Part shown: in pieces, positions 1,016 through 9,318 of the stretch
How positions within the stretch are numbered: position 1 is the stretch's first letter
Layout: each line of letters begins with the position of its first letter
Virus record (IMG/VR): IMGVR_UViG_2778261697_000006
Reading direction: 5' to 3' (one strand)
Origin: a virus
Lineage: Duplodnaviria; Heunggongvirae; Uroviricota; Caudoviricetes
Length of the DNA: 10,680 bases
Notes under the pieces: generated by a model
Databases searched by the model: none
Seen by the model: the letters and a program-made list of their open reading frames with translations, nothing else
What the model was told of the DNA's origin: nothing
Position numbers and translations under genes: made by a program

Positions 1016-1201
1016 CTACCTGCGCGGCGCTGGCTTCTTCCACTGGTAGGCAGGTGCTCGCATCATTTCGCGGAACCTGTCGCGCCGGGCTATATCGGCA
1101 TTAACTGAGCGTTCTATCTCCCGTTGATCTGCCTGTGTAAGCTGGTGGCCTCCGTGCTCAAGTTTGGCGATGGTCAATAAGGCTATTTCGCGTGGTGTCA
1201 T
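1016..1201 (-). CDS. Hypothetical small protein (61 aa)
   Basis: ATG at 1199-1201 preceded by a GAGGG SD-like motif (AGAGGGTATGACGT-ATG); charged, helical-looking sequence. No family recognised; short ORF, so uncertain. Confidence 0.4.
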   Translation of the reverse strand: MTPREIALLTIAKLEHGGHQLTQADQREIERSVNADIARRDRFREMMRAPAYQWKKPAPRR

Positions 1202-1335
1202 ACGTCATACCCTCTGGAAGGATGAAACACGCCCGGATTAAATTTCATTTTTCGCGGGTATGAAAAAACGATGGGGCGGGCAGTCCCGGACAGTCAGGGC
1301 TGTAGAGATTTGACTACCCCCTCCCCGCTGGTGGT

Positions 1336-1617
1336 CTACCTTTGCCTATTGCCGCCATTTAACCGGAAGGCGTTACCGTTCGGTTGCGCTATCCCCATGC
1401 GGTGTTGCGTTTCGGTAACAGCTTTATGCAGGTCGCCAAAGTCCTCAACCTTCACGGGCGGGCGCTTCACGTTCTCCAGACACGTTTCACGGCGGCGCTT
1501 TATCCATTCCCGATCATCGTCCTCGGTGCATAACAGCATGACTTCCATCCATCGCGCTGCGGCGCGTCGGTACAGCCCTTTTGCTTCCAGATCCTCGGCT
1601 TTACTGTCGTTTACCAT
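1336..1617 (-). CDS. PerC-family transcriptional activator-like protein (93 aa)
   Basis: N-terminal AEDLEAKGLYRRAAARWMEVM matches the LE.KGL.RRAA.RW motif I associate with PerC/Pch-type small regulators. GGGGGAGA SD about 6 nt before the ATG at 1615-1617; a TATAAT hexamer on the minus strand (1683-1688) upstream. Confidence 0.6.
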   Translation of the reverse strand: MVNDSKAEDLEAKGLYRRAAARWMEVMLLCTEDDDREWIKRRRETCLENVKRPPVKVEDFGDLHKAVTETQHRMGIAQPNGNAFRLNGGNRQR

Positions 1618-1830
1618 GTTTATCTCCCCCAGAATGGCGTTTCATCGTCGAATGGTGGGCGTTGGTCAAAATCATCAGGGGTATTATATAACTCCTATCC
1701 CGGCGCGGATTGTGTTGCGTGGCCTCCTGTGTGCCTGTAGCCTGGCTGATTCCGGTAATACTGCGGAGTTAGGTATACCGGCATAGCTTACCCGTGGAGA
1801 AATGAATCATCGAATGAGTTTGGTCTGGAG

Positions 1831-2502
1831 TTATTCCACCAGCAAAAATGGCGTTGCCCGGTCTATGACGTTGATGCCAATTAACGAGCTAACATTTCGA
1901 CCATTCACAATGCTATCCCGTTCAAGCAAATGCGCTATTTTTTCTACTTCATACCAGTATTGAGACATGAGGGCTTTGGTCTTTTCAACGAGTTTAGAAA
2001 GCATTAACTCCCTGTTAATTCGCTTATCTGTAGCGCAGATTAAATCGAGCATGTCATTTACGTTAGCCATGTCATAGCGATGAGGTAGCGAATACTTTTT
2101 GTTGAAAATATCGTTGTTTTCGTAAAGGGCTTCGCTTACTGGTCCGGCGAGGGATACAAAAGCGGCCTTTTTTGCATCGCGCTTTATACCATCCGCATAG
2201 TAACGTATGAAAGGGATAACTTTACCATTCTGCCCAACTACACCAGATTTACTATCCCGCAAACGCCCTAGATCGTGGCTGTGAATTATGCTGTGTTTAA
2301 CAACACCCAAACACTTGGCCTCATGTACATGTTCGCCAGCAACGTAACCGTATTCATCCATAACGGCGATAACCTGTATATCTAAGCGAATAAGCCATGC
2401 AGCTACTGCATGTCCCGCTTCGTGGAATGCTACACATCGTTTACCATCACCTATCCAGTTATAGAACATTTCATGCTCATATATCTGGTGAATGGCGCCC
2501 AT
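1831..2502 (-). CDS. Putative zinc metallopeptidase (223 aa) with HEAGH motif
   Basis: FHEAGHAVAAWLI near the N-terminus is an HExxH zinc-binding motif in an FtsH/M41-like context (HEAGHA). Start ATG at 2500-2502 overlaps the stop of the upstream small ORF (TAATG), indicating translational coupling. Visibly AT-richer than flanking genes. Confidence 0.7.
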   Translation of the reverse strand: MGAIHQIYEHEMFYNWIGDGKRCVAFHEAGHAVAAWLIRLDIQVIAVMDEYGYVAGEHVHEAKCLGVVKHSIIHSHDLGRLRDSKSGVVGQNGKVIPFIRYYADGIKRDAKKAAFVSLAGPVSEALYENNDIFNKKYSLPHRYDMANVNDMLDLICATDKRINRELMLSKLVEKTKALMSQYWYEVEKIAHLLERDSIVNGRNVSSLIGINVIDRATPFLLVE

Positions 2503-2675
2503 TACGCGCCCTCGCTTGCCAGTGAGGCCAGCGCCTTATCCATTAATCCCCGAGCAATTTCGTGGATCGTTGGCGCAACTCCTACCTCTGATTTTTTACG
2601 CTGCTCCTCCTGAATTTTCTTTATCGCTTCCATTTGCTTCTCACTTATCAATACCGGCTTTACTGAAATAGCCAT
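2502..2675 (-). CDS. Small ribbon-helix-helix-like protein (57 aa), first gene of a two-gene operon with the metallopeptidase
   Basis: ATG at 2673-2675 preceded by AAGGGG 4 nt upstream; the ORF-track extension to 2702 begins with TTG and lacks an SD, so I prefer the internal ATG. MAISVKPVLISEKQMEAIKKIQEE looks like a beta-strand followed by a helix (RHH/Arc/CopG-like). Stop overlaps the start of 1831..2502. Confidence 0.5.
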   Translation of the reverse strand: MAISVKPVLISEKQMEAIKKIQEEQRKKSEVGVAPTIHEIARGLMDKALASLASEGA

Positions 2676-2699
2676 AACGCCCCTTAGAACTGTATAAAA

Positions 2700-2745
2700 C
2701 AACAGTTATTATAGTTTCACAAATAGCAATATTTATCACCGTAAT
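2700..2745 (-). promoter_or_regulatory. Candidate sigma70-type promoter for the RHH-metallopeptidase operon
   Basis: Perfect TATAAT on the minus strand (plus 2708-2713) about 33 nt upstream of the ATG at 2675; only a weak -35 (ATAAAT at 17-nt spacing). AT-rich context. Confidence 0.3.
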
Positions 2746-2769
2746 TGCAAAATATGAAACAAATAGCAC

Positions 2770-2801
2770 AAAAAAATGCCGCCGCTCAGTAGCTGGTGGC
2801 A
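2770..2801 (-). terminator. Candidate intrinsic terminator ending the primase transcript
   Basis: Minus-strand transcript UGCCACCAGCUACUGAGCGGCGGCA forms a GC-rich imperfect hairpin (about 8 bp with one mismatch and one bulge) followed immediately by seven U (plus-strand A-run 2770-2776). The U-tract is on the minus strand only. Confidence 0.35.
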
Positions 2802-2811
2802 TCGTTCTGTG

Positions 2812-2826
2812 TGTCAAGTTTTGACA
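2812..2826. promoter_or_regulatory. Perfect palindrome TGTCAA-gtt-TTGACA, operator-like site
   Basis: 6-bp inverted repeat with 3-bp spacer read directly from the sequence. Half-sites equal the -35 consensus but no matching -10 lies at 16-18 bp on either strand, so I read it as a protein-binding site rather than a promoter. Confidence 0.3.
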
Positions 2827-2842
2827 AGTTTCGTTTTAAGCT

Positions 2843-2871
2843 CACCCCCCCATAGAATCTTTTTGGGGGTG
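2843..2871. other. GC-clamped hairpin / inverted repeat flanking the iteron array
   Basis: CACCCCC ... GGGGGTG 7-bp inverted repeat with a 15-nt loop; no U-tract follows on either strand, so not called a terminator. Confidence 0.3.
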
Positions 2872-2873
2872 TA

Positions 2874-3127
2874 ATATCCCTACCAATCCCTACTAACTGG
2901 CTCATGCCACGAATGGCAAGGCTTTCAGACTGGTAGGCATTCAATTTTGTTGCCCTACATAACCCTACTTATCCCTACTAAATCACTTCAACGGCATTTT
3001 ACTGCCTGTTTTATTTGGTAGGGATATGTAGGGATAAGTAGGGATAAAAATATATATCCCTACCTAGTTTAAAGCCTTGCTACGTCTGGCCTCGTCTCGT
3101 TTTTAGTAGGGCAGTAGGGATAAGTGC
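2874..3127. repeat. Iteron array, putative origin of replication (ori/crr-like)
   Basis: At least 10 copies of GTAGGGATA or its complement TATCCCTAC. Reverse copies at about 2875, 2886, 2952, 2962, 2971 and 3055; forward copies at 3019, 3028, 3038 and 3114, plus degenerate copies at 3106 and 2931. An AT-rich core (ATAAAAATATATAT, 3044-3057) sits between inverted copies. Lies immediately 3' of the primase gene, as P4 crr does relative to alpha. Confidence 0.75.
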
Positions 3128-3140
3128 CGCCGTAAAAGTT

Positions 3141-5582
3141 TCAATCATCACTCTGCCCGCTCTCCACACCGTAAGCGCGTGGCATGAACTCCTCAGCCTT
3201 CTCGTTATAGCCAACGTTGGTTTGCGCTCTGCCGTTAATGCTTCTCGTCAGGTAGCTGGCTCGGTACTCTTTTGCTGCTGATTTTATGGCGCGTGAAAAC
3301 TTATTGACGGAAAGCGGTTTACCCAGGCCGTGATACTCCATAAACGCCAGATAAAGATGATAAAGATATGTCCTCGGCTCTGGCTGGCCTGCCCATGTAC
3401 CTCCGCCCATCATCATGCCTTTGGGTTCGTTCATGAAAAAAAGCGCCGCACACATATCGACAACCGGATCTGTGCCGCGTTTAACCTCTAGCGCCTCCTG
3501 CGAATCGCGCTGCTCTAGTAATAGAGCCTTTGCTTTGTTCTGGTCGGCAAAGGTGGTTAGCAGGTGGCGGATAATCACCGGGATTTCTCGCCTGATTTTT
3601 GCGGTTAAATCCGGGTCTTTGTCTGCGTCTGATACCGGGTTATTAAACGGGAATATCACGCGGCGGCGGGCAATGCCCCCGTTTCGCTCCGTGAATGTCA
3701 TCGGCTCGTTATTGGTTGCCATAACAACGGCATTTATCACGGTTGTGAACTGCTTTTCATATTTCCCATCAATCTCTACCGGATCGCCGCCCGTAATGGC
3801 TTTAATCCCCGCACCCTCTCCAACGTAGCGGGTCTGGTCAGGCATAATAATCAGGCTTTTCCCTACGAACTGCGCCCGTCCCCGTGCGGTGTCCAGCGTC
3901 ATCATGCTACCGCTGGCGGTGTTGTGTTCACCTGCCAGCGTGGTTGCTATGCTGCTGAATACGGATTTCCCACTGCCGCCCTCGCCAGTTATCTCAATGA
4001 ATAGCTGCCAGTCGTGACGCTTCGCCAGCACCATAAACAAGGCTGCTTTGATACGCTCGGCCTTATGATGGTCGCCAGCCGTTGCATGATTCAGCCAACG
4101 GGTAAAATTGGGGGCGCTGGTGGTAATATTTTCCCCCGGCGCTGGCGGGGTGTAGGTGATCCCATTGTGGTTCATCAGCCAGTTACCCGGCGAATGGGCG
4201 GAAAACGTCTGCGTAGCGAGGTCATAAACGCCGTTATCAAAACCAATCAGATCCCCGCTCCGCTCACCAATTACCGGTATTTGCAGCTTCATGGTTGCGA
4301 CAACCGATTTAATCCCCTTTTCGGTGTAGTGGGCTTCGTGCTCGTCGAAAATTGCCACCATAACCCTTTCTAATTCGCTGTCTGGTAGCTTCACCCATAC
4401 GCCAGATTCGTAGCAGTAAACAGTGCCACTATCAGGGTTAACCGCCAACATATCCCATCGAGATGAAAGCAACCGCGCTTTCTGGCTGGCTGCCATTTGT
4501 GCAATATCTCCGACTTCGGCTTTACGGCGGGATTTACCGCCCGCAATGGCCTGTAGTTGTGGTTTCACGGCTTCCCCCTGAATCTGGTACATCGAATCGT
4601 TAAACGCAGCCGTAGCGACTTCCAGCCCGTTTTGCTGGCGGTAGTCGTCCCAGTCGGCTTTGTAGTCTGTCGGCGGCAGCGCCACCCAGCCAGCCACGGA
4701 TAAGGCGGCTTTCTCTGCGGCATCTTTGCCCGTGTTCGCCTGTTCGTCCTGCTGGTGGTCGTTATCTGCGGCAATGATAATTTGCGACTGCGGGTGTTTC
4801 CGGCGCATTACTCTGGCAACGTGGATCAGGTTCCCGGCGTCAATTGCCGCCACTGTAAGCGCGTCCGGGCGCATCAGGTGAACGGACAGGGCCGTCGCCA
4901 GCCCCTCGGCAATTAATACGCTCTGCGGCTGTTCTGGTGCGTTTACGGCGCGATATGCCCCGCGCTTTGCTGAACCTGTCAGGAGTCGCTTCTCTCCCTG
5001 CGGTGTAATGGTTTGCGCTGCTGCCACTGCGCCGGATTCGTCCACCAGCTCCAGCAATAACGAACCATCCGGCATAACCGGATAGTTAAACCCGGTCAGC
5101 CCTTTTGATTGCAGGTAATCAGATTCTCCCTGTGTGGCACTCTGGCGCATTCCGGCATACAGACGGGCAAACGTAGCCCTTCGCTGCTCTGCATCCTCTG
5201 CTGCCTGTTTCTGGCGCTCCTGCTCACGCTGCTGGCGGTCAGCTTCCAGTTGCTCTCTTCTATGGCTCGCTGCCACCGGGTCGGTTTCCGCTGCCCGGTA
5301 ATCAATACCCAGCACATCAGCGGCAAGCTGTGCCGCCTCCGTAGTGTCGCAGTTGTTCACCTTCTTAATCAGGTCTAAACCGTCACCAGCGCCACACTGA
5401 TTGCAGATAAAGCTACCGCGCCCGTTGTCGTCGAATCTGAAACGGTCTTTTCCACCACATGCAGGGCATGGAGAATGGCGGCGCGATGAATCAGGCACGT
5501 CGATAGACAATCCAGCCAGCACATAAGGCCAGCGCCCGGCGGCGGCACTGGTCACTTCGCGGATAAGGTCGATATTACGCAT
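3141..5582 (-). CDS. P4-alpha-like primase-helicase (813 aa): Zn-ribbon + TOPRIM primase + D5/P4-type NTPase
   Basis: CPACGG...CNQCG zinc-ribbon near the N-terminus; TOPRIM motifs LIAEGLATA (cf. P4 alpha/DnaG EGYATA) and IIIAADNDHQQDE; Walker A ITGEGGSGKS around nt 3963-3986. Strong AGGAGG SD 5 nt before the ATG at 5580-5582. Start overlaps the stop of the upstream 113-aa ORF by 8 nt. Confidence 0.9.
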   Translation of the reverse strand: MRNIDLIREVTSAAAGRWPYVLAGLSIDVPDSSRRHSPCPACGGKDRFRFDDNGRGSFICNQCGAGDGLDLIKKVNNCDTTEAAQLAADVLGIDYRAAETDPVAASHRREQLEADRQQREQERQKQAAEDAEQRRATFARLYAGMRQSATQGESDYLQSKGLTGFNYPVMPDGSLLLELVDESGAVAAAQTITPQGEKRLLTGSAKRGAYRAVNAPEQPQSVLIAEGLATALSVHLMRPDALTVAAIDAGNLIHVARVMRRKHPQSQIIIAADNDHQQDEQANTGKDAAEKAALSVAGWVALPPTDYKADWDDYRQQNGLEVATAAFNDSMYQIQGEAVKPQLQAIAGGKSRRKAEVGDIAQMAASQKARLLSSRWDMLAVNPDSGTVYCYESGVWVKLPDSELERVMVAIFDEHEAHYTEKGIKSVVATMKLQIPVIGERSGDLIGFDNGVYDLATQTFSAHSPGNWLMNHNGITYTPPAPGENITTSAPNFTRWLNHATAGDHHKAERIKAALFMVLAKRHDWQLFIEITGEGGSGKSVFSSIATTLAGEHNTASGSMMTLDTARGRAQFVGKSLIIMPDQTRYVGEGAGIKAITGGDPVEIDGKYEKQFTTVINAVVMATNNEPMTFTERNGGIARRRVIFPFNNPVSDADKDPDLTAKIRREIPVIIRHLLTTFADQNKAKALLLEQRDSQEALEVKRGTDPVVDMCAALFFMNEPKGMMMGGGTWAGQPEPRTYLYHLYLAFMEYHGLGKPLSVNKFSRAIKSAAKEYRASYLTRSINGRAQTNVGYNEKAEEFMPRAYGVESGQSDD

Positions 5583-8421: not shown

Positions 8422-9318
8422 TCATGATTTAAAAGATTTATTAGCCGATGAGAAATATTCATCCAGTAAGCGGGGACTTAACTTTAAACCTACATCCAGC
8501 ATTTCTGCCTTGAGGGCGTCTTGTGTCCACCTTTTAGAGGTTGGTTCAGCTTTTTTTAAAGCTTTCAGCATTGAACCTATCACTAATAAGCTTTCGTTTA
8601 AGGTCAAATCGCCATCGTCTCTTCCAAGCGATTGCTGCTCAAACTTCTCAATATTCTCGCGCCTAAAAATAAACTCAACATCTCCCAATCCGTCGGCAGG
8701 ATAAAAGAATCTATGGTGATTATCAAAATCAACCTTTTCACCTGTCACGCTGTCACAATAAGCCAACACATCATCATTCATTCTCTTAAACTCAAGAGGG
8801 TTGAAACTCTCCATAATGTTATAGAGTTCTCCCCCGCTGAGCACGAAAGCACCCTCGGTATTCACAAACTCCCTCGGATTTCTGCCTTGCTTAATGTCGA
8901 ATAAGTGCATGACATCAAGCTCCTCGCTCCCCAGCAGAGGGCAAGGCAAGTCATAAATGTCATGTCTCAACCTAACGACTGCCCCCTCCCTTTTGATAGT
9001 TTCATATTCAAAATCCAACTCTGCATTTGTAAAAAACCTTACGTCATTTAGAAGCGAGGAGAATGCTCCTTCACTTGTCGTTTCCGTTATGGTGCGCGAG
9101 AACAATTCTCTTTTAGAGGTTGTAACGATTTTTGCTTTAACTGCATACCTAGAGTCGGATAAGAGAATAGATATTGTTATATGACCATCTAAAGCCAATT
9201 GAAGGCAATCAACCTCACTTATTTCCTCTCCAAAAGAAACAGTAAGTCTTTTGGCTGCCTCATTTAATGTTAACCACTCTTTTAGTTTAAAAAGCTTTTT
9301 CACTGCGTCACCTTTCAC
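8422..9318 (-). CDS. Hypothetical protein (298 aa), AT-rich cargo gene between int and alpA; possible N-terminal HTH
   Basis: Long ORF with no ATG in the first ~137 codons: starts at GTG 9316-9318 (AAGG 6 nt upstream) or GTG 9301-9303 (AAGGTG 5 nt upstream). Markedly AT-richer than flanks by eye. N-terminal WLTLNEAAKRLTVSFGEEISEV has a helix-turn-helix-like pattern. No enzymatic motif recognised. Confidence 0.6.
   Translation of the reverse strand: MKGDAVKKLFKLKEWLTLNEAAKRLTVSFGEEISEVDCLQLALDGHITISILLSDSRYAVKAKIVTTSKRELFSRTITETTSEGAFSSLLNDVRFFTNAELDFEYETIKREGAVVRLRHDIYDLPCPLLGSEELDVMHLFDIKQGRNPREFVNTEGAFVLSGGELYNIMESFNPLEFKRMNDDVLAYCDSVTGEKVDFDNHHRFFYPADGLGDVEFIFRRENIEKFEQQSLGRDDGDLTLNESLLVIGSMLKALKKAEPTSKRWTQDALKAEMLDVGLKLSPRLLDEYFSSANKSFKS

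What the first reader, a model, noticed from the sequence alone, without database searches (positions are those of the whole stretch)
1831..2745. AT-rich, translationally coupled RHH + HEAGH metallopeptidase operon next to the satellite origin
A 57-aa protein with an RHH-like N-terminus is coupled (TAATG overlap) to a 223-aa protein carrying an FtsH-like HEAGH zinc-binding motif but no AAA+ ATPase domain. The pair has its own TATAAT promoter, is separated from the primase operon by a terminator-like hairpin, and is AT-richer than the replication module, suggesting separately acquired cargo. A small DNA-binding protein plus protease pair is the logic of ImmR/ImmA-type switches and of some toxin-antitoxin or abortive-infection modules, but the RHH partner and M41-like motif do not match a system I can name. 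It could be an anti-phage or addiction module, or a protease-controlled regulator of the island.
Basis: partly seen in the sequence, partly recalled or inferred. Interest (0 to 1): 0.7.

Follow-up and report, generated by a model that had tools for sequence, protein, structure and literature searches.

The report
Satellite operon: regulator plus FtsH-like protease
The two genes are real, but the small DNA-binding protein is the conserved first gene of an operon in a known family of E. coli phage satellites, and only the AAA-less FtsH-like protease behind it is swapped-in cargo, sitting where related satellites carry phage DNA-injection genes.

Summary
On the minus strand a 57-aa ORF (2675-2502) overlaps by TAATG a 223-aa ORF (2502-1831) with an HEAGH motif. 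A terminator-like hairpin and a TATAAT lie upstream, and the protease gene is AT-rich (43% GC vs 55% for the primase).

The 223-aa protein is a stand-alone FtsH-type M41 protease domain with invariant H27, E28, H31 and D144. It is found in 53 E. coli genomes and in no phage or plasmid record. It matches no PADLOC model. It also occurs without the RHH gene, including a Dickeya in-frame fusion that deletes most of that gene.

Toxin-antitoxin and ImmR/ImmA readings fail their tests. Most likely it is a swapped-in proteolytic effector of the satellite's helper-exploitation operon. Its substrate is unknown.

The parts
2874..3125 (.). Iteron-type replication origin of the satellite: GTAGGGATA/TATCCCTAC repeats in both orientations around an AT-rich core
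   Evidence: the repeat finder families D1-D3 and pairs I1-I8. It lies directly downstream of the P4-family primase gene, 5582-3141.
2767..2811 (-). Terminator-like hairpin (GAUGCCACC...GGCGGCAU) followed by U7, separating the primase operon from the next operon
   Evidence: RNA fold of 2880-2760(-): -39.7 kcal/mol, z = -4.68. Conserved in EcCIMP1-type E. coli islands.
2725..2750 (-). Conserved dyad TTGCAAT-N13-ATTGCT, a candidate operator or activator site overlapping the -35 position
   Evidence: One match in the window against 0.02 expected. Found once or twice at the same place upstream of the small ORF in 21 loci.
2708..2713 (-). Perfect -10 hexamer TATAAT with no canonical -35 (probably an activator-dependent promoter)
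   Evidence: Sequence reading. Nearly invariant in alignment A5. Not called by the sigma-70 scan.
2502..2675 (-). 57-aa ribbon-helix-helix protein, the conserved leader gene of the post-origin operon
2521..2527 (.). Right-hand recombination junction of the variable segment, inside the last 6-8 codons of the RHH gene
   Evidence: Matches to other islands start at window 2521 or 2527. The C-terminal tail of the RHH protein changes with the downstream gene.
1831..2502 (-). 223-aa stand-alone FtsH-type (M41) zinc metalloprotease domain, translationally coupled to the RHH gene by a TAATG overlap
   Evidence: Profile against FtsH 2ce7, E = 2.3e-5 in two collinear stretches. AF2 model pLDDT 71; the 43 best Foldseek hits are all FtsH, AFG3L2, YME1 or FtsHi chains. 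All 44 sampled relatives hit PF01434. dN/dS 0.17-0.21.
2410..2424 (-). HEAGH zinc-binding and catalytic motif (H27, E28, H31)
   Evidence: Invariant in the close family and in 44 distant relatives.
2071..2073 (-). Asp144, candidate third zinc ligand (by analogy with the Asp ligand of FtsH)
   Evidence: Invariant in alignments A2 and A3. The ligand role is inferred.
1618..1830 (-). Left part of the island-specific segment: spacer between the protease gene and the conserved PerC gene (1617-1336)
   Evidence: Backbone similarity to EcCIMP1 and CP53 resumes at 1617. The segment shared with other protease-carrying islands starts at about 1764-1766.

Best explanation
**What the island is (shown).** The window is an ~11-kb EcCIMP1-like phage-inducible chromosomal island (PICI) at tRNA-Thr. 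Gene order on the minus strand is: int, DUF6387, AlpA, AntA/B, Icd-like, P4-type primase, iteron origin, terminator, promoter, RHH gene, protease gene, PerC, 61-aa ORF, pRiA4b ORF-3.

**What the RHH gene is.** It is the conserved first gene of the operon that begins just after the origin (shown). It probably regulates that operon through the conserved dyad next to the -10 (inferred).

**What relatives carry in this slot (shown).** The RHH gene is translationally coupled to helper-type DNA-delivery genes:
- P22 gp14/gp7/gp20 plus a gp16-like or SLT protein in E. coli, including EcCIMP1 itself.
- Tape-measure, baseplate-hub or internal-virion proteins in other Enterobacterales.

**What happened here (shown).** In this island, and in 26 of 5,426 complete E. 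coli genomes, recombination within the last 6-8 codons of the RHH gene replaced that cassette. The replacement is one AT-rich gene for a soluble, AAA-less FtsH-type zinc metalloprotease domain with intact catalytic residues.

**Most likely function (inferred).** The protease is made together with the RHH protein when the operon is switched on. It acts as a proteolytic effector of the satellite's helper-exploitation or phage-interference module, cleaving a phage protein (of the helper or of a superinfecting phage) or a host protein. It is not the toxin of an RHH-antitoxin pair, and it is not an ImmA-like switch. Its substrate and phenotype are unknown.
For: **Island identity**
- 100% DNA match in E. 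coli MIN9, next to tRNA-Thr/proA.
- Protein identity to EcCIMP1 (locus L048): PerC 92%, 61-aa ORF 100%, pRiA4b 100%, 113-aa ORF 88%, primase N-terminal part 72%, RHH about 80%.
- EcCIMP1 is an experimentally verified PICI, mobilised by the P22-like phage Kapi1, with mapped ends (PMC11773190).

**RHH gene is backbone**
- The core 50 residues are conserved while the tail changes with the downstream gene.
- 30 IMG/VR loci carry it; the P4-type primase was detected upstream in 18 of them.
- 508 E. coli genomes carry it.
- In E. coli the gene that follows it is a gp20-like ejection gene in 214 genomes, DUF2824 (gp14-like) in 258, and the protease in 26.

**Occupants of the slot**
- P22_gp7 (E = 1.9e-72), Inj_translocase, DUF2824 and SLT domains.
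- Tape measure, baseplate hub and internal virion/endolysin-domain proteins.
- No credible PADLOC hit for any occupant.

**Protease identity**
- Searches agree on an M41 protease domain.
- Catalytic residues are conserved and selection is purifying.

**Independence from the RHH gene**
- E. coli QDFD216: SSB gene, then the protease.
- Dickeya: the family promoter and the first RHH codons (M..VKPV) are fused in frame to an intact protease.
- Loci L007/L008: a different 55-aa ORF precedes the protease.

**A second island subfamily shows the same swap.** In the E2348/69 type the leader block is int, a 183-aa ORF, a 62-aa ORF, then RHH. It is followed either by the protease or by a tape-measure gene.
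Against: - No experiment or substrate prediction links the protease to any phage or host protein.
- The window protein itself scores below Pfam's M41 gathering cutoff (21.3 vs 29.9 bits).
- In three lineages the RHH gene and the protease do stay together with the same overlap (window type, E2348/69 type, L022). A functional partnership is therefore not excluded.
- Several of the best structural matches of the RHH model are antitoxins.
- In L008 and L022 the protease is followed by baseplate or head/tail genes. It may accompany virion genes rather than replace them, or those islands may sit inside prophages. Island ends in the IMG/VR loci were not mapped.
- The helper phage of this particular island is unknown.
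- The promoter call rests on conservation only.
Confidence: 0.55

Rival explanations
1. Morphogenetic or virion-linked protease. The enzyme would process or degrade helper DNA-delivery or tail proteins during assembly, or would itself be delivered with the DNA. It would then be a functional member of the same virion/DNA-entry module that fills this slot in relatives.
For: - It occupies exactly the slot that otherwise holds ejection, tape-measure, hub or internal-virion genes.
- In L008 baseplate genes follow it (Baseplate_J, Phage_Wedge1), and in L022 major head, neck and sheath genes follow it.
- Pick et al. call this position the typical place for PICI packaging genes.
Against: - tblastn finds no homologue in 50,697 phage records, neither for the window protein nor for two distant family members. 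A standard virion or assembly protease would be expected in phages.
- It has no signal peptide or membrane segment (sequence reading).
- In the window island it stands alone, with no virion gene nearby.
Confidence: 0.15
2. Regulatory anti-repressor protease of the ImmA/IrrE type of logic. The enzyme would cleave a repressor, of the island or of the helper prophage, to switch a lifecycle.
For: - Distant stand-alone M41 proteins sit in mobile elements next to small HTH_3/HTH_31 genes or integrases.
- FtsH itself degrades lambda CII, CIII and Xis (established knowledge).
- In E2348/69-type islands the cassette lies between int and the regulatory genes.
Against: - No Pfam M78/ImmA match; the fold is M41.
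- The neighbouring gene is an RHH protein shared with islands that lack the protease.
- Only about 5% of islands with this backbone carry the protease. AlpA is the master regulator in EcCIMP1. The protease therefore cannot be the family's core switch.
Confidence: 0.13
3. Self-contained two-gene toxin-antitoxin, abortive-infection or defence module: RHH antitoxin/regulator plus metalloprotease toxin/effector.
For: - The stop/start overlap is kept in three diverged lineages.
- EcCIMP1-like elements confer unexplained superinfection immunity.
Against: - The same RHH gene, 80-91% identical, is coupled to structural ejection genes in 472 E. coli genomes.
- An intact protease occurs without it in QDFD216, in Dickeya (an in-frame deletion of the RHH gene) and in L007/L008.
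- Neither protein, nor any of 44 relatives, matches a PADLOC model.
Confidence: 0.12
4. Neutral or decaying passenger gene with no current function, left after the ejection cassette was lost.
For: - It is a single gene in place of a 4-5-kb cassette.
- It is a minority variant, in 53 of 5,426 genomes.
Against: - dN/dS is 0.17-0.21 over up to 26% protein divergence.
- Catalytic residues are invariant down to about 20% identity.
- It is full length in E. coli, Salmonella, Enterobacter, Citrobacter, Shigella and Dickeya.
Confidence: 0.04

Closest known systems
EcCIMP1, a PICI of E. coli MP1 with helper phage vB_EcoP_Kapi1 (Pick, Stadel & Raivio, ISME J 2025; PMC11773190)
   Same: - Same attachment site (tRNA-Thr, between proA and yagU) and the same backbone order.
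- PerC 92%, 61-aa ORF 100% and pRiA4b 100% identical; the primase N-terminal part is 72% identical.
- The same RHH leader gene and promoter region follow the origin.
   Different: - EcCIMP1 is 20 kb. After the RHH gene it carries DUF2824, P22_gp7, Inj_translocase and a 906-aa SLT protein.
- The window island carries only the M41 protease there.
- The paper mentions neither the RHH gene nor any protease.
FtsH / peptidase family M41 (Pfam PF01434)
   Same: - HEAGH motif and an invariant downstream Asp.
- Collinear sequence-profile match to the FtsH protease domain.
- Predicted fold matches FtsH, AFG3L2 and YME1 protease domains.
   Different: - No transmembrane anchor and no AAA+ unfoldase; only 223 aa.
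- An insertion of about 50 residues follows the HEXXH helix, relative to the 150-200-aa stand-alone relatives.
- About 11-16% identity to FtsH chains.
- Belongs to a large, uncharacterised group of stand-alone M41 domains: 2,385 representatives at E <= 1e-3.
ImmR/ImmA (ICEBs1) and IrrE/DdrO metalloprotease-repressor switches
   Same: - A small DNA-binding protein sits next to an HEXXH metalloprotease on a mobile element.
- Some distant M41 relatives neighbour HTH_3 genes.
   Different: - A different protease family (M78, not M41).
- The partner here is an RHH protein, not an XRE-type HTH.
- The protease lies in a variable cargo slot, is absent from most relatives, and is not in the island's regulatory module.
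[not shown]
   Same: - RHH fold, small size, upstream position, and a stop/start overlap with the downstream gene.
   Different: - The RHH gene is shared with non-toxin partners.
- The downstream gene occurs without it.
- No toxin family is matched.
Helper-exploitation operons placed after the origin in other satellites (SaPI operon I; the rpp region of EcCICFT073-type PICIs)
   Same: - Position downstream of the primase and origin, transcribed as a separate unit.
- Content that varies with the helper phage (established knowledge of PICIs).
   Different: - Those operons encode capsid-size, packaging-redirection or small-terminase proteins.
- This family encodes DNA-delivery proteins or, here, a protease.

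Membership tests
Peptidase family M41 (FtsH-type protease domain) | HEXXH zinc motif plus a downstream acidic third ligand | tested here: met
   HEAGH at residues 27-31. H27, E28, H31 and D144 are invariant in 12 close and 44 distant relatives. The ligand role of D144 is inferred.
Peptidase family M41 (FtsH-type protease domain) | M41 protease-domain fold | tested here: met
   AF2 model pLDDT 71.3, pTM 0.73. The 43 best Foldseek PDB hits are all FtsH, AFG3L2, YME1 or FtsHi chains, E down to 6e-5 and TM about 0.5.
Peptidase family M41 (FtsH-type protease domain) | Score above the curated Pfam PF01434 gathering cutoff | tested here: not met
   21.3 bits against a cutoff of 29.9, matching residues 21-40 only. 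Relatives do match: all 44 at E <= 0.01, best 4.2e-16. The family profile hits FtsH 2ce7 at E = 2.3e-5.
FtsH proper (NCBIfam TIGR01241) | N-terminal membrane anchor and AAA+ ATPase fused to the protease | tested here: not met
   The protein is 223 aa. TIGR01241 scores 15 bits against a cutoff of 600. No AAA family appears in Pfam.
Ribbon-helix-helix DNA-binding proteins (small ORF) | N-terminal strand followed by two helices (RHH fold) | tested here: met
   [not shown]
Ribbon-helix-helix DNA-binding proteins (small ORF) | Sequence-profile match to an RHH family | tested here: not met
   No Pfam, NCBIfam or PHROG match for the protein or for 28 homologues.
Ribbon-helix-helix DNA-binding proteins (small ORF) | Dimeric, sequence-specific DNA binding | not testable with these tools
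   The candidate site is the conserved dyad at 2750-2725. Binding was not tested.
Type II toxin-antitoxin pair (RHH antitoxin plus toxin) | Antitoxin and toxin are dedicated partners that travel together | tested here: not met
   The RHH gene is coupled to ejection genes in 214 + 258 E. coli genomes against 26 with the protease. In other genera it is coupled to tape-measure, hub or internal-virion genes.
Type II toxin-antitoxin pair (RHH antitoxin plus toxin) | The toxin gene is not maintained without its antitoxin | tested here: not met
   An intact protease occurs without the RHH gene in QDFD216, in Dickeya (an in-frame fusion that deletes the RHH body) and in L007/L008.
Type II toxin-antitoxin pair (RHH antitoxin plus toxin) | Toxicity of the downstream protein, neutralised by the upstream one | not testable with these tools
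   This needs expression experiments.
ImmR/ImmA-type repressor-protease switch | ImmA/IrrE (M78, PF06114) protease paired with an XRE-type HTH repressor in the regulatory module | tested here: not met
   No M78 hit. The partner is an RHH protein. The gene lies in the cargo slot and is absent from about 95% of islands with this backbone.
Known anti-phage defence systems (PADLOC-DB v2.0) | Match to a model of a described defence protein | tested here: not met
   No hit for the protease or for 44 relatives. The small ORF has only a chance-level Cas11a hit, E = 0.015.
PICI satellites, EcCIMP1-like (the island as a whole) | int-AlpA-primase-origin layout, small size, tRNA attachment site, homology to a verified member | tested here: met
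   Gene content. Same site and 72-100% identical backbone proteins compared with EcCIMP1.
PICI satellites, EcCIMP1-like (the island as a whole) | Helper-dependent excision, replication and packaging | not testable with these tools
   Shown experimentally for EcCIMP1 with Kapi1 (PMC11773190), not for this island.

The most novel reading that the evidence does not exclude
The AAA-less FtsH-type protease is a new kind of satellite-encoded entry or superinfection-exclusion effector. Lacking an unfoldase, it would attack proteins that reach the cytoplasm unfolded or that are intrinsically labile. Candidates are phage ejection proteins threading in with the DNA, or CII/CIII-like early regulators that FtsH normally degrades. 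On this reading it does by proteolysis what the ejection-protein cassette of sister islands may do by competition, which would explain why the two are interchangeable in the same slot. It might also assemble into, or compete with, host FtsH rings.
Probability: 0.12. Interest if true: 0.8.

Novelty: new variant of a known kind. Interest (0 to 1): 0.5.

Why it matters
EcCIMP1-like PICIs are common in E. coli: the leader gene alone is in about 9% of complete genomes. How they exploit their helpers is unknown, and so is how they confer the unexplained superinfection immunity reported for EcCIMP1.

This analysis shows that one promoter and one RHH leader gene drive an exchangeable cassette. That cassette is usually a helper-type DNA-injection set and, in this island, a stand-alone FtsH-like protease. 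This gives a natural swap experiment for that question.

It also gives a first biological handle on a very large, uncharacterised group of AAA-less M41 domains found on mobile elements.

Finally, it removes a tempting but wrong reading. The pair looks like a toxin-antitoxin or ImmR/ImmA module only when this one island is viewed on its own.

Tried and rejected
**Searches that found nothing**
- PADLOC on both proteins, on 44 protease relatives and on ten slot occupants gave no credible hit.
- Pfam, NCBIfam and PHROGs on the small ORF and 28 homologues gave nothing.
- A profile of the small ORF against PDB sequences found nothing relevant.
- tblastn of the protease and of two distant relatives against phages, and of the protease against plasmids, found no match. 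tblastn of the small ORF against phages also found nothing.
- The sigma-70 and terminator scan called neither the TATAAT promoter nor the hairpin.
- Literature searches for 'peptidase M41' with anti-phage, or for FtsH-like proteins lacking AAA in prophages, returned no papers. The Tai tail-interference paper and the helper-embedded PICI paper do not mention a protease.
- The afdb50 fold library was unavailable.

**Readings considered and rejected**
- The small ORF is not an origin-linked copy-control protein. In E2348/69-type islands it lies next to int, far from the primase.
- The 66-aa TTG start is unlikely. The ATG has a Shine-Dalgarno site and homologues start there.
- The slot is not a general defence hotspot like that of P4. 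Its occupants are virion DNA-delivery proteins, not defence systems.
Full report
**1. What is in the sequence**

All genes of the finding lie on the minus strand.

- The small ORF starts at ATG 2675, preceded by AAGGGG, and ends at TAA 2504-2502 (57 aa).
- The next ORF starts at ATG 2502-2500, so the two share one base in gcgTAATGggc. It ends at 1833-1831 (223 aa).
- HEAGH is residues 27-31 (2424-2410).
- Upstream, reading 5' to 3' on the minus strand:
  - the primase stop at 3141;
  - a field of GTAGGGATA/TATCCCTAC iterons at 3125-2874;
  - a strong hairpin followed by U7 at about 2811-2767 (fold z = -4.7);
  - a dyad, TTGCAAT-N13-ATTGCT, at 2750-2725;
  - a perfect TATAAT at 2713-2708.
- The consensus scan called neither promoter nor terminator. 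There is no -35 at the proper distance, and the hairpin loop is long.
- The protease gene has 43.3% GC (GC3 42%), against 55.2% (GC3 60%) for the primase and 47.7% for the small ORF.
- Both ORFs evolve under purifying selection, dN/dS 0.11-0.21.

**2. What the island is**

- The window is 100% identical to a segment of E. coli O176:H45 MIN9, next to tRNA-Thr and proA.
- Gene order is: int, DUF6387, AlpA-type HTH, 144-aa ORF, AntA/AntB, Icd-like, small ORFs, P4-family primase, origin, the two genes of the finding, PerC, 61-aa ORF, pRiA4b ORF-3, 119-aa ORF.
- It is a close relative of EcCIMP1 and sits at the same attachment site. EcCIMP1 is a PICI satellite shown experimentally to be excised, packaged and transferred by the P22-like phage Kapi1 (PMC11773190).
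- Identity to EcCIMP1:

| Protein | Identity to EcCIMP1 |
|---|---|
| PerC | 92% |
| 61-aa ORF | 100% |
| pRiA4b ORF-3 | 100% |
| 113-aa ORF | 88% |
| Primase, N-terminal part | 72% |

- DNA similarity between the two covers window 1200-1617 and 2527-2831, and breaks in between.

**3. The small protein**

- It has no sequence-family match.
- Its AlphaFold model (pLDDT 79) has an extended N-terminus and two helices.
- It is not a private partner of the protease. Its core 50 residues are conserved in other islands, while the last 6-7 residues change with whatever follows.
- Matches in other E. coli genomes begin at window 2521 or 2527.
- The gene with its promoter occurs in 508 of 5,426 complete E. 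coli genomes, 498 of them near full length.
- In E. coli the gene that follows it is as below. The three counts sum to the 498 near-full-length genomes.

| Gene following the RHH gene | E. coli genomes |
|---|---|
| gp20-like ejection gene | 214 |
| DUF2824 (gp14-like) gene | 258 |
| M41 protease | 26 |

- Homologues form 186 protein clusters across Escherichia, Klebsiella, Serratia, Citrobacter, Raoultella, Hafnia, Pantoea and Erwinia. All are annotated as hypothetical.

**4. What normally sits behind the RHH gene**

- In EcCIMP1 the occupants are DUF2824, P22_gp7 (E = 1.9e-72), the P22 injectosome translocase domain and a 906-aa SLT protein.
- In 30 IMG/VR loci anchored on the RHH gene, the P4-type primase was detected upstream in 18. 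The downstream genes fall into about eight unrelated sets.
- PHROGs identifies them as tape-measure proteins (661 and 1,162 aa), a baseplate hub (337 aa), and internal-virion or endolysin-domain proteins (837-901 aa) with their partners.
- None is a credible PADLOC hit.
- The slot therefore carries helper-type DNA-delivery genes rather than defence systems. Only 1 of these 30 loci has the protease.
- For E. coli genomes and EcCIMP1 these genes are inside the island. For the IMG/VR loci the island ends were not mapped.
- The dyad and TATAAT are conserved upstream of the RHH gene in 21 loci. This points to a regulated promoter that probably depends on an activator. Whether the RHH protein, AlpA or PerC acts there is inference.

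**5. The 223-aa protein**

- Pfam gives only a sub-threshold M41 hit around HEAGH.
- A profile of close relatives matches FtsH structures in two collinear stretches, E = 2.3e-5.
- The AlphaFold model (pLDDT 71, pTM 0.73) retrieves FtsH, AFG3L2, YME1 and FtsHi chains as its 43 best matches.
- An exhaustive profile search finds 2,385 representatives, mostly 150-250-aa stand-alone proteins.
- All 44 sampled relatives hit PF01434 and none hits PADLOC.
- H27, E28, H31, G120 and D144 are invariant.
- It is therefore a soluble FtsH-type protease domain without an unfoldase or membrane anchor.
- Close relatives (74% identity or more) are confined to Enterobacterales.
- The gene is in 53 E. coli genomes, including EPEC E2348/69, and in no phage or plasmid record.
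- Distant members sit in mobile-element contexts: next to HTH_3 genes, integrases, transposases and primases.

**6. Is the pair a unit?**

They stay together, with the same overlap, in three settings:
- the window type;
- a second island subfamily ordered int, 183-aa ORF, 62-aa ORF, RHH, protease, sometimes followed by a 350-aa lipoprotein (E2348/69, O45:H2 FWSEC0003, 47-1826);
- locus L022.

But the same 62-aa-plus-RHH leader also precedes a tape-measure gene in L026. The protease also occurs without the RHH gene:
- after an SSB gene in QDFD216;
- after a different 55-aa ORF in L007/L008;
- in Dickeya, where the family promoter and the first RHH codons (M..VKPV) are fused in frame to an intact protease, deleting the body of the RHH gene.

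A dedicated antitoxin or repressor partner would not behave like this.

**7. Most likely mechanism**

Shown:
- The RHH gene is the conserved leader of the operon after the origin.
- The protease is an exchangeable cargo gene. The segment specific to protease-carrying islands is window 1618-2526, and it replaces a 4-5-kb ejection cassette.

Inferred:
- The operon is switched on during helper-induced activation of the satellite. The RHH protein modulates it through the dyad.
- The protease then acts on a phage or host protein, as part of the helper-exploitation or phage-interference module.

I rate this reading at about 0.55. The rivals are:

| Rival reading | Confidence |
|---|---|
| Virion- or assembly-linked protease | 0.15 |
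| ImmA-like regulatory protease | 0.13 |
| Self-contained toxin-antitoxin or defence pair | 0.12 |
| Neutral passenger gene | 0.04 |

The evidence for and against each rival is given in its own entry.

**8. Comparison and novelty**

- The island is a member of a known, recently described PICI type.
- The RHH leader and the cassette-swap architecture are not described in the paper on EcCIMP1. That paper only notes similarity of EcCIMP1_017-019 to DNA-transfer and DUF2824 proteins.
- RefSeq already names the large protein 'peptidase M41 family protein'. I found no paper on stand-alone M41 domains in satellites or defence.
- I therefore rate it a new variant of a known kind. It is moderately interesting, mainly because the swap of a protease for an ejection cassette is a ready-made experiment on how these satellites deal with their helpers.

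Noticed in passing
Loci L002-L004, L011-L040, L048 (slot corresponding to window 1618-2526): Across this satellite family, the operon led by the RHH gene carries full-length helper-type DNA-delivery genes. These are P22 gp14/gp7/gp20 plus a gp16-like or SLT protein, tape-measure proteins, a baseplate hub and spike, and internal-virion proteins. They seem matched to different helper morphotypes. I found no description of this pattern beyond a remark on EcCIMP1_017-019.
   Followed up: partly
L001 1816-11922 (E. coli MIN9, beyond the left end of the window): A second, degraded P4-like satellite lies in tandem with this island. It has a truncated int, ISEc31, a truncated DUF927 primase, sid-like, psu and ogr/delta genes, and a DRT3a/DRT3b defence pair in its hotspot.
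   Followed up: no
window 8422-9318 (-): The DUF6387 gene next to int is as AT-rich as the protease (40.6% GC). Unrelated genes replace it in sister islands (CP53, E1535), so this looks like a second variable slot. It has no PADLOC or Pfam hit.
   Followed up: partly
L006 7934-8986, L050 6866-7924, L009 10795-11853: A ~350-aa predicted lipoprotein (signal LALMFTGC) directly follows the protease in an E. coli tRNA-Ile island, an O45:H2 island and Dickeya. The E. coli and Dickeya copies are 68% identical. It is absent from the window and matches no family. It may be a functional partner or an exclusion lipoprotein.
   Followed up: partly
L009 9960-10060 (Dickeya dadantii): The family promoter region and the first codons of the RHH gene (MDTGCKVKPV) are fused in frame to the protease. 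This is a natural deletion of the RHH body that keeps an intact HEAGH protease.
   Followed up: yes
L022 7954-13876; L008 4019-8264: In these metagenomic or IMG/VR loci, major-head, neck and sheath genes (L022) or Baseplate_J/Wedge genes (L008) follow the protease. Either these elements carry virion genes beside the protease, or the islands are embedded in prophages. The ends were not mapped.
   Followed up: partly
window 2812-2871 (-): Two further palindromes lie between the iterons and the terminator. One is CACCCCC-N13-GGGGGGTG (2871-2843). The other is TTGTCAAAACTTGACA (about 2831-2812), which contains a perfect TTGACA. Their function is unknown; they may be origin or promoter elements.
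   Followed up: no
window 2666-2676, 2719-2728, 2759-2768: The motif GCTATTTG (minus strand) occurs three times around the promoter and the start codon of the RHH gene, 40 and about 53 nt apart. It could be a second set of regulator sites or chance.
   Followed up: no
window 1271-1786 (+): The 171-aa ORF on the plus strand is antisense to the PerC gene (1617-1336). RefSeq does not annotate it, and it is almost certainly spurious.
   Followed up: no
L041, L043, L044 (distant stand-alone M41 proteins): Distant family members sit beside small HTH_3/HTH_31 genes, a NikA-like RHH gene or integrases on unrelated mobile elements. This hints that some branches of this uncharacterised family may act in regulatory switches.
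   Followed up: partly
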